From contig OZ024754.1 in the NCBI GenBank assembly GCA_964016885.1, forward strand, positions 27,156,001 to 27,220,000: 64,000 bases of DNA, given 5' to 3'. Both the position numbers and the translations under genes were made by a program. Source of the stretch: Eledone cirrhosa. Its lineage: Eukaryota. This document shows, piece by piece, positions 14,290-60,232 of this stretch; positions within the stretch are counted from its first letter, which is position 1; every line of letters starts with the position of its first letter. Under the pieces are notes generated by a model that saw only the letters and a list, made by a program, of their open reading frames with translations, was not told the origin of the DNA and made no database searches.

Positions 14290-14860
14290 ATTGAAAAGAG
14301 GATTATTATGAACCAGATACATTTGGCAGGTCATGTGGTCAGGATGGAAGATGGAAGGCAGCCGAGGCCATTATTTCATGGGGAGCTGACTAGAGGAAAT
14401 TTTCCACACCAAAAACCAACCAGAGCGGTTGAGGTATATCAAAAAAGACAATTTTAAAGTTTTGAAGATTGATATGGAAAACTGGGAGTCATTGGCTGAA
14501 GGCTATATATTATGGGGAATGATCATTAAGAATGGATGTGATGTATTTGAGAAAAGGCGAGTAGAACATACTGCTTTCAAGCGTTCACTCCGTAAGCCGG
14601 ACACAAGTGCAATGCCAGCAAAAACCCAGCAGTTATTAAAGTGCAACGTATGTGGCCGATTTCTTCTTTCAAGAGCTGTATTTGTTACCTATCTGTCGCA
14701 CGAACAGAGGAGAAACCGATCCACATGCGAGATAGTTTCATTTGCAAGGCAGCGTGGTTTCATTTGCAAAGCAGCTGGTTGAGTTGATCATGATCGTGCA
14801 TTGTTCAATGAAAGGACGGCACTCTTCTGACAAGAAATAGCAATCAACATTATGTTCGTG
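14290..14860 (+). pseudogene. RTE-clade LINE 3' fragment (RT C-terminus plus C2H2-like finger)
   Basis: QIHLAGHVVRMEDGRQPRPLFHGELTRG / IDMENWESLA..W..IKNGC..FE / CNVCGR..LSH, with frameshifts. Confidence 0.85.
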
Positions 14861-19165: not shown

Positions 19166-19300
19166 CTATTTTTTCAACGGTTACTCACTTGCATATTCCA
19201 TTGTCCTACGTGCCCCCCTCCTTCGGTCTGTTTGCCTCGTTTTTTTCTCTTTCTTCCTCTCTCCTCACTACTTTTCCTTTTTTTCTTTTCTTTCCCTCCT

Positions 19301-19425
19301 GGCCTTTTGATCGATAAAAGGCCTTGGGCGCGCTGATGATCGCTTTTGATGTCCTGTATTGAGCGCCGAAACATCTATGATCTGCGGTTTACAGCTGATG
19401 AAGGATTTCTTCTCTTGTTTCGTCT
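19301..19425 (+). ncRNA. Candidate permuted/pseudoknotted hammerhead ribozyme, copy 1
   Basis: GATGT-C-CTGTA ... GAAA-CATC ... TACAG-CTGATGA; GUC site at 19353. Confidence 0.6.
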
Positions 19426-36989: not shown

Positions 36990-37021
36990 TAAAATAACAG
37001 ATTAAAGTTGATATATATATA

Positions 37022-37801
37022 TGAATTAAAATGAAGAATTAGAAATAGGACTATCCATCATCAGTGATCTACTAGCCATCATAGGTATTTATTCGCTAGC
37101 GCGAACAATAACTAAAATAAGTTATTGGGATAAAAAGAATTGGGTGGAGAAAGAGAGACAGGTATACAAACATGAATGGTGAGGCAACGTAAAGAGAGGA
37201 AAAAATGTGAAAATCAAGTCAATGATTCATTTGAATATAAGAACTTACGAATATTGACGAGAAGACGAGAGACACATCCCAAGCATGCGAAAGTAAGCGA
37301 GGAAAGAATTACGTATGGTGTGGGGCGACGGAGGAAGTGAGAGAGAAGGTGAGTAGCAGAGAGTGAGTGAGTGAAAGTGTGAGGAAGAGGCTAGCCGAGA
37401 GAGGGTCACTAGCAGAGGGGGTGAATGAAAGTAAGAGGGAGAAGGAGGTCCCATACCATGCTTAATTCTTTCCTCGCTTACTTTCGCATGCTTGGGATGT
37501 GTCTCTCGTCTTCTCGTCAATATTCGTAAGTTCTTATGTTCAAATGAATCATTGACTTGATTTTCTCATTTTTTCCTCTCTTTACGCTGCCTCACCATTC
37601 ATGTTTGTTCACCTGTCTCTCTTTCTCCACCCAATTCCTTTTATCCCAATAACTTAGTTTAGTTATTGTTCGCGCTAGCCTGATGTATCTGGTCTTTAAT
37701 GCGAAGAAATACCTATGATGGCTAGTAGATCACTGATGATGGATAGTCCTAATTCTAATTCTTCATTTTAATTTGTATAACACAGCACGCTATTTTTCAT
37801 T

Positions 37802-40402: not shown

Positions 40403-40979
40403 TATGTATGTATGTATACGTACATACATATATGTATACAGACGTACACTAGTATGTATATATATACATACATGCACACGTATATATGCACGTATCGGTT
40501 TACTGAACATTTATTATAATGTTTGGTTTGTTTGTTTATATGTGTGCATGTATATATATATATATACATACTACTGTACGTCTGTATACATATATGTATG
40601 TACGTATACATACATAAATACTTACATTTAAGTAAGTGCCGTACTAAGAGTGAGAAATGAAATTTCGTTTCATTCTATTCTATATATATATATATATACA
40701 CATGTGCTATTTAAGTGAGTTACTTATGGTTACTAGCGGCGACGCTGCTCGAAGGACTCGACGCTGCTACGGTCTCGTTGGGTTGTGCTCCAAGTTTAAG
40801 GCGGCTGTAGTTTGCAGAGTGTATATAACCTTTGAATTGGACCACCCGTGTAAACTCGCATAACTGAGGAGGTTTCGATTACGAGTCGAGATCCGATCGC
40901 CTGATCAAACTCGAACTGATCGATATCGATACAGTTGTAATATGCAATAAAGTTTGATAACAAACTGCAAATATAACTT

Positions 40980-41084
<105 letters not shown>

Positions 41085-41470
41085 CATCGGCTCTCTCTCT
41101 CTATATATATATATTTACCTCGGCTGCGTTTGTCTGTTTCTCTCTTACTGCTTCCCCGTTCTCTCTGTTTCTCTCACCCTCTTTCGCCCCCTCTGTCAGT
41201 TACACTTTCTCTCGACTGACCGCTTCCTCGCACTTCCACTCACTCACTCTCTGTTACTCCCCTTCTCATTTCCCCCCGTTTGGCTTACAGTGGGTTTCTT
41301 CTTGCTTACATCTCACTCACGTCGGGCGCCTGTACCTTTCGCTCATGAAATTCATCCAGCTTATGCTGACCAGGACAACCATGTTGCTTGTTTTTTTTCC
41401 TTTCTTTGGTTTGCTTTTATCTTTCTATGTTGTTCACTTGCCCCCCACGCTTTACGCGATTTACTGGTCC

Positions 41471-41580
41471 CAATAACTTTTTTTAGTTATTGCTCGCACC
41501 AACCTGAGGTATATGATTTTTAATGCGATGAAATACCAATGATGGTTGGAAAATCACTGACGAAGGACTATTTTTATCCT
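41471..41580 (+). ncRNA. Candidate permuted/pseudoknotted hammerhead ribozyme, copy 3
   Basis: GGTAT-A-TGATTTT ... GAAA-TACC ... AAAATCA-CTGACGA; AUA site at 41513. Confidence 0.62.
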
Positions 41581-41622
41581 ATGTAACCCATGTGCAACCA
41601 CGCAGTATTCTTCTTTCTTCTC

Positions 41623-41672
<50 letters not shown>

Positions 41673-59727: not shown

Positions 59728-60123
59728 CTATTCATGTTTTCTATTTAATTTTGGTTGGAGTTCATTTATGTTTATTGCCTCTGTGATTTGTCTAAACATT
59801 GCGTCTTTTCTGTGTGTAGATTCTCTTTTTATTTCTATGTTCTCGAATTTACCCTTATGTTCTATTTTAGCATGTTGGTAGAGTACAGATGATTCTTTAA
59901 TATCTTGAAGGGCTCGCCAGTATTCATTTATCCGTTCCCCTATACTACGAGCTGTCTCACATATGTACACTATATTTTTATCTCTACATTGTCCTTCAGT
60001 ACATCTTATGCTATATACTACATTTCTAGTTTTACAGTTCATATGGGGGCTTAATTTACAGATTATACATTTCTTATCTATACAGGGAGGTTTTTGAAAA
60101 GGGTATGTATTGCTAATAAGTGT
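59728..60123 (-). pseudogene. PLE GIY-YIG endonuclease domain with upstream Cys-rich linker
   Basis: CIDKKCIIC..NCKTRNVVYSIRC..C..VYICETARSIGERINEY..QH..EH..RQITEAININ..PKLNRKHE; frame open but RT absent. Confidence 0.9.
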
Positions 60124-60232
60124 TTTTATGGAGGTGTGTTTCTTATTGGCAACATGACCCTCCCAAAGTATAACAATACGGTTTCAACACACGTTTTCAG
60201 ATAAAGAATCTTGCTAAACAAATTCAGAAACG

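What the first reader, a model, noticed from the sequence alone, without database searches (positions are those of the whole stretch)
41471..41580. Best-paired copy of the permuted hammerhead, with a swapped 10.1-11.1 pair
This copy has a 5 bp stem III and a 7 bp stem I. The base after CUGANGA and the base before GAAA are A/T here and T/A at 37.7 kb, as expected if they form the first pair of stem II across a nicked junction. CUGANGA is followed by a small hairpin in all three copies (AGGA..TCCT, GGA..TCC, AGGA..TTCT) but by no second GAAA. Instead there is sequence partly complementary to the GAAA strand (TGTTTCG at 19.4 kb, TATTT here), which hints at an alternative inhibitory fold.
Basis: partly seen in the sequence, partly recalled or inferred. 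Interest (0 to 1): 0.75.

Follow-up and report, generated by a model that had tools for sequence, protein, structure and literature searches.

The report
Split-core hammerhead ribozyme in Naiad-type repeats
Thousands of short jumping repeats in this animal genome carry a likely self-cutting hammerhead RNA whose parts come in scrambled order and whose stem II is predicted to be replaced by a four-armed junction, and the same fold can be read at the ends of published Naiad retrotransposons that were reported to lack a canonical hammerhead.

Summary
41466-41569 holds a hammerhead core in the non-circular order S-G-C (5-bp stem III, 7-bp stem I, predicted cut after A41513), one of 9,455 pattern matches (0 control). 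The A/U-to-U/A swap at 41564/41529 is one event on the family tree. The pair holds in 24 of 38 representatives, 5 of 7 inherited changes break it, and at least 1,450 copies cannot form it. The downstream hairpin needs a TCCT found in 2 of 38 family copies, and the 'inhibitory' pairing is no better than shuffles here. Instead, GGAC after CUGANGA pairs far upstream (41467-70), and an upstream strand (41494-98) pairs with the bases before GAAA. With a hairpin they make a predicted four-way junction; a kink-turn-type motif extends stem III. By eye, published octopus, coral and ctenophore Naiad ends show the same junction. 5' ends of truncated copies pile up just 3' of the predicted cut (about 3-fold), a possible trace of cleavage in vivo. 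Cleavage is untested. The scan found this family before on other DNA, the junction included.

The parts
41115..41629 (+). Non-coding, about 515-bp repeat element between (TA)n tracts; carries the ribozyme about 115 nt from its 3' end
   Evidence: 90-97% identical copies at 29 other loci, with partial tandem and inverted copies; boundaries approximate
41466..41470 (+). P0, 5' strand (GGUCC); pairs with 41565-41569.
   Evidence: 85.8% of cells paired, A-U 15 / G-C 15 / U-A 2 at one position; two A-U to G-C double changes on the tree
41471..41492 (+). 8-bp hairpin (CAAUAACU / AGUUAUUG), one arm of the predicted four-way junction
   Evidence: 95.7% paired, 4 of 8 pairs with double changes; pair probability 0.97-1.0
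41494..41498 (+). Upstream strand UCGCA; pairs with 41524-41528 and takes the place of the 10.x strand of stem II (helix PII)
   Evidence: 87.4% paired, U-A 32 / A-U 4 at 11.2; G-C-rich equivalents in the 19.4 kb family and in Naiad consensuses (by eye)
41499..41507 (+). 5' strand of the stem that extends stem III, ending in a box-D-like CUGA (non-bulged strand of a predicted kink-turn)
   Evidence: 93.4% paired, 5 of 6 pairs with double changes; A opposite G in 136 of 143 copies, G opposite A in 130 of 143
41508..41520 (+). Block S: stem III 5' strand, U16.1 (41512), H17 = A41513, predicted cut between 41513 and 41514, stem I strand
   Evidence: H17 is A/C/U in 266 of 267 copies and 16.1 is U in 259 of 267, neither being scored in the search
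41524..41537 (+). Block G: UGCGA (PII 3' strand), U41529 (11.1), GAAA 41530-33, stem III 3' strand
41538..41549 (+). 3-nt bulge AAU, GAU (box-C-like) and 3' strand of the extension stem: bulged strand of the predicted kink-turn
   Evidence: kink-turn rules recalled from general knowledge, not from a call
41550..41564 (+). Block C: stem I strand, CUGACGA core 41557-63, variable base A41564
   Evidence: position 7 takes all four bases (U192, C51, G15, A9 of 267); 41564 takes all four bases across subfamilies
41565..41569 (+). P0, 3' strand (GGACU); closes the junction with 41466-41470
   Evidence: -5.4 kcal/mol as an isolated duplex
37641..37745 (+). Second copy (family B): H17 37689, GAAA 37706, core 37733; P0 is UAUCC/GGAUA
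19297..19405 (+). Third copy (family C): H17 19353, GAAA 19368, core 19395; upstream GGCGC 19327-31 pairs with GCGCC 19363-67, so G-C at 11.1 comes from the upstream strand
37018..37154 (-). Inverted partner of the 37.7 kb element, with an internal deletion that removes the cleavage site, the stem I 5' strand and PII

Best explanation
This is likely a self-cleaving hammerhead ribozyme near the 3' end of a non-autonomous, probably Naiad-mobilised Penelope-like repeat, with its core blocks in the order S-G-C and stem II predicted to be replaced by a four-way junction. Shown by sequence comparison: stems I and III, the stem extending stem III, the upstream hairpin, PII (upstream strand on the bases before GAAA) and P0 (bases after CUGANGA on the 5' flank) all keep pairing through changes. 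Inferred: P0 anchors A9 and PII anchors G12-A13, bringing the G12-A9 and A13-G8 pairs together without a continuous stem II. The bases at 41564 and 41529 sit at the junction and pair opportunistically (with each other in this copy, with the neighbouring strands in others, with neither in some). The kink-turn would bend the extension of stem III so that the knotted strands can reach, possibly helped by an L7Ae-family protein. The RNA would cut after A41513 (AUA). In tandem or read-through transcripts this would free the element RNA, and the 3' product can apparently serve as template, leaving copies whose 5' ends lie just downstream of the cut.
For: Order and stems: (3 hits against 0.06 in shuffles). 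Copy number: 9,455 against 0 for the reversed control. Whole structure on 38 rows: 90.9% paired, 22 of 37 pairs with double changes (shuffled 15.4+-1.7), slid controls 30-48%. Inherited changes keep pairing in stem I 9 of 9, extension stem 14 of 16, hairpin 2 of 2, P0-4 2 of 2. Unscored hammerhead rules are met: H17 not G in 266 of 267, U16.1 in 259 of 267, position 7 free. A direct 3-bp stem II exists in only 10 of 267 copies. The same P0 + hairpin + PII + S-G-C layout, in mostly different sequence, can be read by eye at the 3' ends of Naiad_Obim, Naiad_Ovul, Naiad_Amil/Aacu/Anas and Naiad_Bfor in the supplement of PMC8557442. Element habits match those that paper gives for Naiads: (TA)n targets, partial tandems, inversions. 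5' ends: 12 in the 13 nt at and 3' of the cut against 3.98 expected (p=0.0009; 11 and p=0.003 after removing an inverted partner). TA-flanked copies: 18 start in the 31 nt 3' of the site and 3 in the 31 nt 5' of it on the first 116.7 Mb of C1 (counted by eye; p=0.0015). Reverse-strand counts fall again further 3' (362, then 158).
Against: No cleavage was measured. The 10.1-11.1 position, highly conserved as G-C in canonical hammerheads (PMC4209133 passage), is A-U here, and several multi-copy subfamilies offer no Watson-Crick partner for 11.1 (paired by either route in 24 of 33 medoids and 117 of 143 copies), so some may cut slowly or not at all. PII and the first P0 pairs are nearly invariant in families A/B/E, so their support rests on few changes and on the by-eye Naiad reading. 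Nested folding gives P0 only 0.28-0.34 in this copy and less than 0.15 at 37.7 kb (it cannot model pseudoknots). CUGANGA, GAAA, GCG and RUGAU were demanded by my patterns, so their conservation is circular. No autonomous Naiad was sought by protein in this genome; an ORF listing of 248 fetched loci showed none that I recognised as Naiad. Of 29 Naiad 3' ends displayed I could read the full layout in 4 (three are near-identical corals); none of the 15 showed it within the stretch shown. Genome-wide reverse counts (423 for the 31-61 window, which includes carry-over from the 0-30 window) allow a step of only about 2-fold. The breakpoints fall on TA/AT microhomologies. In the anole Poseidon element, hammerhead cleavage needed protein and was not required for insertion in vitro (PMC11167929 passages).
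Confidence: 0.72

Rival explanations
1. One reading: A41564-U41529 is the required first pair of a nicked stem II, and the 30 nt after CUGANGA form a hairpin or an inhibitory fold that switches cleavage off.
For: Four pair types occur across families (A-U, G-U, U-A, G-C); the pair beats column shuffles (22 of 33 against 15.0) and holds in 143 of 175 A/B/E copies. In the 19.4 kb copy a 7-bp complement to the GAAA strand forms with p 0.6-0.8 in nested folding. Family B keeps a downstream UCC that could compete with P0.
Against: 5 of 7 inherited changes break the pair; at least 1,450 of 9,455 copies cannot form it; 20 of 20 family C copies have C/A. The hairpin of this copy rests on a variant seen in 2 of 38 copies. 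Hairpin and inhibitory energies equal shuffles over 55 clusters.
Confidence: 0.08
2. The RNA descends from a hammerhead but now acts mainly as a folded protein-binding signal (kink-turn plus junction) that recruits the Naiad protein or a host 15.5K/L7Ae protein; cleavage is lost or occurs only in the complex.
For: The canonical G-C before GAAA is lost in families A/B/E, and amplifying subfamilies have no partner for 11.1. Hammerhead cleavage in a Poseidon element was protein-assisted and dispensable in vitro. The 5'-end excess could come from reverse transcriptase stalling in the pseudoknot.
Against: H17 avoids G in 266 of 267 copies and U16.1 is kept, which a binding role would not obviously need. 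The best TA microhomology of the region (TATA ending at H17) is hardly used as a junction, while sites just 3' of it are.
Confidence: 0.14
3. The strands assemble between two tandem copies as an ordinary type I hammerhead, as dimeric Penelope hammerheads do, and the knotted single-copy fold is not the active one.
For: Partial tandem copies are common; metazoan PLE hammerheads are thought to work as dimers (PMC4209133 passages).
Against: There is no stem II between blocks C and G in 257 of 267 copies and no palindromic loop III. The extension stem, P0 and PII join segments that lie within about 105 nt of one copy, whereas tandem cores are 470-630 nt apart (positions).
Confidence: 0.04

Closest known systems
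Type-SGC hammerhead ribozymes (HRIMA-1 and SGC variant; Eckert, Friedrich, Weinberg, Weinberg 2023, PMC10085705; read: main text parts 1-6 of 8, supplement parts 1 and 8 of 42)
   Same: Block order S-G-C; full core CUGANGA, GAAA, UH; pseudoknotted stems I and III; a short linker from stem I to the strand before GAAA; the descriptor allows one extra base after CUGAUGA.
   Different: Published SGC ribozymes have stem II directly between blocks C and G with G10.1-C11.1, and the paper assumes block C cannot be separated from stem II. Here only 4 of 267 copies meet that rule; the two halves pair with two different upstream strands. The paper found SGC only in metatranscriptome or metagenome sequence and none in known genomes except one weak GCS candidate. 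A kink-turn-type extension of stem III is not mentioned in the parts read.
Naiad Penelope-like elements (Craig, Yushenova, Rodriguez, Arkhipova 2021, PMC8557442; read: abstract, passages, supplement parts 1 and 24 and search excerpts)
   Same: (TA)n insertion bias, partial tandem and inverted copies; consensus 3' ends of octopus, coral and ctenophore Naiads show the same fold by eye; the octopus hairpin loop and the coral UUAAU linker match those of family A/B.
   Different: The paper reports no canonical hammerhead, only 'HHR_core' or 'HHR_half_core' strings. The element here is about 0.5 kb and non-coding. In the autonomous consensuses the pair before GAAA is G-C from the upstream strand, whereas this copy has C opposite U.
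Minimal type I hammerheads of Penelope/Poseidon-type elements (Cervera and de la Pena 2014, PMC4209133, passages) and the anole PAc ribozyme (PMC11167929, passages)
   Same: Hammerhead in the terminal repeat of a Penelope-like element; a variable extra base between A9 and 10.1; possible need for protein help.
   Different: Those keep the circular order C-G-S, a long stem II with G10.1-C11.1 and a minimal palindromic stem III; this RNA has a long stem III and no direct stem II.
Pseudoknot (PK) hammerhead (Zhan et al. 2024, PMC11300833, passages)
   Same: Helix II is replaced by a pseudoknot helix with a separate strand, leaving only the A9-G12 and 10.1-11.1 pairs; shows that such a core can be fast.
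   Different: It keeps G10.1-C11.1 with a loop joining them and the circular block order; here the 10 and 11 sides are not joined by a loop.

Membership tests
Hammerhead ribozyme (class) | Core CUGANGA, GAAA and UH, with H not G and position 7 free | tested here: met
   H17 A136/C121/U9/G1 and U16.1 259 of 267 (not scored); N7 takes four bases; CUGANGA and GAAA were demanded by the search
Hammerhead ribozyme (class) | Stems I and III flanking the core, with covariation | tested here: met
   stem I 89.5% paired, 4 of 7 pairs with double changes; stem III 96.3%, 2 of 5
Hammerhead ribozyme (class) | Stem II starting with a 10.1-11.1 pair (usually G-C) next to A9 and G12 | tested here: not met
   a 3-bp direct stem II in 10 of 267 copies; single pair in 24 of 38 rows; replaced by PII and P0
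Hammerhead ribozyme (class) | Site-specific self-cleavage after H17 | not testable with these tools
   only indirect: 5'-end excess 3' of the site
Type-SGC hammerhead (Eckert 2023) | Block order S, G, C | tested here: met
   H17 41513 < GAAA 41530 < CUGANGA 41557
Type-SGC hammerhead (Eckert 2023) | Stem II of at least 2 bp plus G10.1-C11.1 between blocks G and C (published descriptor) | tested here: not met
   4 of 267 copies, all in the old, diverged group; this copy fails
Type-SGC hammerhead (Eckert 2023) | Extra helix joining the far ends of stems I and II | tested here: inconclusive
   no such helix found; stem I is tied to PII by a 3-nt linker (41521-23), and P0 and the extension stem may do the bracing
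Rfam hammerhead families | Match to an Rfam model | tested here: not met
   5 weak non-hammerhead matches at 41400-41625, none near its gathering score
Kink-turn (box C/D type) | 3-nt bulge followed by tandem G-A, A-G pairs between two helices | tested here: met
   41538-43 against 41504-07; A opposite G 136 of 143, G opposite A 130 of 143 (U opposite A 11), U-U 108. Some family C copies have Watson-Crick pairs there instead. The motif rule is recalled, and RUGAU was in the search pattern
Kink-turn (box C/D type) | Kinked geometry or L7Ae/15.5K binding | not testable with these tools
   needs binding or probing experiments
Naiad Penelope-like element | ORF with N-terminal GIY-YIG endonuclease, CxC linker and C-terminal RT | tested here: not met
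   the element is about 515 bp and non-coding; it can only be a non-autonomous dependent
Naiad Penelope-like element | (TA)n targets, partial tandems, inversions, 5' truncation | tested here: met
Naiad Penelope-like element | An autonomous Naiad with this 3' end in the same genome | not tested
   no protein search of the genome was made; the link rests on published consensuses read by eye

The most novel reading that the evidence does not exclude
Naiad elements and their short dependents carry an undescribed hammerhead architecture in which catalytic A9 and G12 are held by two different helices of a four-way junction, with no stem II, in a non-circular order and with a kink-turn brace. It cuts in the germ line, and the cut is recorded in the genome as a pile-up of copy 5' ends just downstream of the site. 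Families in this one genome preserve stages in which the pair next to the core passes from the downstream strand to an upstream strand, or is lost.
Probability: 0.55. Interest if true: 0.88.

Novelty: new variant of a known kind. Interest (0 to 1): 0.74.

Why it matters
If it cleaves, it breaks the assumption that CUGANGA must run straight into stem II, which underlies the published count of six possible hammerhead permutations and the descriptors that missed it. It would move non-circularly permuted RNAs from unidentified environmental RNA into animal genomes, at about ten thousand copies in this one. It would answer why Naiads seemed to be the Penelope clade without a ribozyme. The 5'-end excess offers a genomic way to test whether Penelope hammerheads cut the RNA that is actually copied, which in vitro work on another clade left in doubt. 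For experiments, the result fixes the construct: it must start at or before 41466 and end at or after 41569.

Tried and rejected
Rfam on the whole window: the 150 of 338 matches displayed were microsatellite-driven miRNA-type hits, none a hammerhead; the local scan found no hammerhead. Box C/D snoRNA: the weak snR66-type matches (25 bits against a threshold of 65) reflect the C- and D-like strings, but D precedes C here and both sit in the stem III extension; rejected. Direct stem II with the downstream strand: 11.2-11.4 pair in 8, 2 and 7 of 143 copies. One search used fixed offsets, so its hairpin and P0 figures are distorted by indels; I rely on the alignment-based for those helices. Rows dropped: one search kept 200 of 258 core matches with an S block, 195 without a microsatellite upstream; one search used 36 of 65 cluster medoids (families C and D, chimeric or deleted copies left out) plus two window copies, each near-identical to one medoid; one search used 55 of 65 clusters; one search used 175 of 179 copies; one search used 267 of 343. 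Pfam on two window ORFs gave nothing above cut-off. Paper searches: 'type-SGC'+'hammerhead' gave only PMC10085705; 'hammerhead'+'Penelope'+'Naiad' gave 4 papers, 3 listed; searches listed none whose title or abstract opening reports this fold in animals or a natural kink-turn hammerhead. The library lacks most subscription papers. The bioRxiv retrozyme preprint (10.64898/2026.07.22.740005, passages only) has 0 occurrences of 'SGC' or 'kink'. PMC3088659 passages gave nothing on a split stem II. Unread supplement parts of PMC10085705 (alignments, Figures S6-S8) could hold variants closer to this one.

Full report
Observation. The blocks run site, GAAA, CUGANGA. A scan for this order that asks only for the core strings and two stems finds three places in the window (19353, 37689, 41513); shuffles give 0.06. 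Position 41529 is T and 41564 is A; the 37.7 kb copy has A and T.

Context. The window lies in a 3.0-Gb, microsatellite-rich genome. The copy sits about 115 nt from the 3' end of a roughly 515-bp non-coding repeat between (TA)n tracts; other copies are 5'-truncated, partly tandem or inverted. A pattern for the core region has 9,455 matches and its reversed control 0. A second pattern finds a further old family (773 matches with up to 2 mismatches, 0 control). I fetched 338 loci and worked from 258-343 distinct core matches, depending on the call.

The 10.1-11.1 claim. Among 200 copies with an intact site block, 11.1/next-base-after-core is T/A 52, A/T 45, C/A 32, T/G 28, A/C 19, A/A 15, others 9 (the sample was enriched on purpose for diverse families). 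On an alignment of 38 rows from families A, B and E the pair holds in 24, or 63%, against 86-96% for the six helices. On a tree of 175 copies built without the tested columns, the A-U/U-A swap is one event, on the branch between families A and B; a second change gives G-U, and five further inherited changes leave a mismatch. Stem I, the extension stem, the hairpin and P0 position 4 end paired in 27 of 29 inherited changes (Fisher p=0.001). The terminal pairs P0-5 and PII-11.6, left out of that sum, fray as this pair does. Genome-wide, 1,450 of the 9,455 matches have A or C at both positions. I read it as a junction pair that forms where it can and is not required. PMC4209133 (passage) notes a conserved extra base between A9 and 10.1 in Penelope hammerheads, and the SGC descriptor allows one; 41564 may be that base.

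What replaces stem II. The bases before GAAA do not pair with those after the core (a 3-bp direct stem in 10 of 267 copies). UGCGA (41524-28) pairs with UCGCA (41494-98), upstream of the cleavage site: 87% paired, U-A 32 and A-U 4 at 11.2. Between P0 and PII lies an 8-bp hairpin (96% paired). P0, hairpin, PII and the core meet with zero or one spare base, which makes a four-way junction; the 3D arrangement is inferred. Family D lacks the hairpin and its PII is not resolved. Stem III continues across a 3-nt bulge and tandem G-A/A-G pairs into a 6-bp stem with 5 of 6 pairs covarying. This fits the box C/D kink-turn as I recall it; some family C copies have plain pairs there.

The 3' hairpin and inhibitory fold. 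The AGGA..TCCT hairpin depends on a C that 2 of 38 family copies have. Over 55 cluster representatives the local fold has a median z of +0.28, and the duplex with the GAAA strand a median z of -0.2; for this copy 31% of shuffles do as well. The 7-bp match in the 19.4 kb copy is real and dominates nested folding, and it recurs in that subfamily, so an off-state there is not excluded.

Naiad link. PMC8557442 says Naiads insert in (TA)n and lack canonical hammerheads, with core strings on either side at 35-50 nt in some. Read by eye, the 3' ends of Naiad_Obim and Naiad_Ovul and of three coral consensuses and the Beroe consensus show stems III and I in S-G-C order, a 5-6-bp upstream helix ending in G-C before GAAA, a hairpin, and a 4-8-bp P0 in other sequence; stem I is only 2 bp in Beroe. 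The other 25 of 29 ends displayed did not show it within the stretch given. I did not find or search by protein for an autonomous Naiad in this genome, so mobilisation by Naiad is inferred.

A possible trace of cleavage. Among 181 pattern-sampled copies, 12 have their 5' end in the 13 nt at and after H17, against a flat 0.31 per nt over the 17-300 nt upstream (3.98 expected; p=0.0009, or 0.003 without one inverted partner). For TA-flanked family A copies on the first 116.7 Mb of C1, I counted 18 starting in the 31 nt 3' of the site and 3 in the 31 nt 5' of it. Of 33 distinct copies listed, 14 start at the first TA/AT sites 7-11 nt after the cut. A window further 3' has fewer (158 against 362 reverse-strand matches, different anchor), so this is not a simple rise towards the 3' end. 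Against: whole-genome counts allow a step as small as 2-fold, breakpoints follow microhomology, and reverse transcriptase could stall in the knot. In an anole Poseidon element cleavage was dispensable in vitro and no reads ended at the site.

Comparison and verdict. It works like a hammerhead and shares its block order with the type-SGC ribozymes of PMC10085705, which cleave at 0.007-0.19 per min and were not found in genomes of known organisms. It fails their stem II rule (4 of 267 copies), so I do not file it as a member of that type. My searches found no paper describing it. Earlier notes of this scan describe the same family in this and other genomes, one with the four-way junction. I had read the helices and suspected Naiad before seeing them; they prompted the supplement check and are not counted as support. 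New variant of a known kind; cleavage likely but unshown; interest 0.74.

Noticed in passing
L249-L278, L171, L231-L239 (family D): An old family of at least 773 copies has G-C at 10.1-11.1, no junction hairpin, and GUCCCA/UGGGAC as P0; two bases of its linker before GAAA are far more variable than their neighbours, unexplained.
   Followed up: partly
L126, L129, L212: In part of family C the tandem G-A pairs of the kink-turn are replaced by Watson-Crick pairs, leaving only the 3-nt bulge; families E and B2 have U or A at the second position.
   Followed up: no
window 37018-37154 (-) and 37155-37800: Head-to-head inverted pair of family B elements; the inverted copy has lost the cleavage site and stem I strand by a short deletion.
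   Followed up: partly
L172, L292, L310, L317, L320, L327: Head-to-tail arrays of two to four units with cores about 470-990 bases apart, as expected of tandem or retrozyme-like transcripts.
   Followed up: no
L042, L056, L179, L284: Inverted junctions often fall within or close to the ribozyme, several between the cleavage site and GAAA.
   Followed up: partly
window 59728-60183 (-): 151-codon frame that looks by eye like a C-terminal GIY-YIG endonuclease remnant of a Penelope/Neptune-type element (label recalled); Pfam gave no match above cut-off.
   Followed up: partly
window 14390-14782 (+): 130-codon frame resembling the C-terminal zinc-finger tail of a non-LTR retrotransposon (label recalled); Pfam gave no match above cut-off.
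   Followed up: partly
L159, L243-L245: A 6-kb, 94-99% identical duplicated segment on C1 and C2 holds a core-like string with a longer spacer and no clear site block.
   Followed up: no
PMC8557442 supplement, bivalve Naiad 3' ends: Several bivalve consensuses end in a shared, structured-looking 3' region with no GAAA...CUGANGA layout in the stretch shown; they may carry a different RNA motif.
   Followed up: no
window 40730-40960: G+C-richer stretch with a short direct repeat between (TA)n tracts, with no match among the fetched loci.
   Followed up: no
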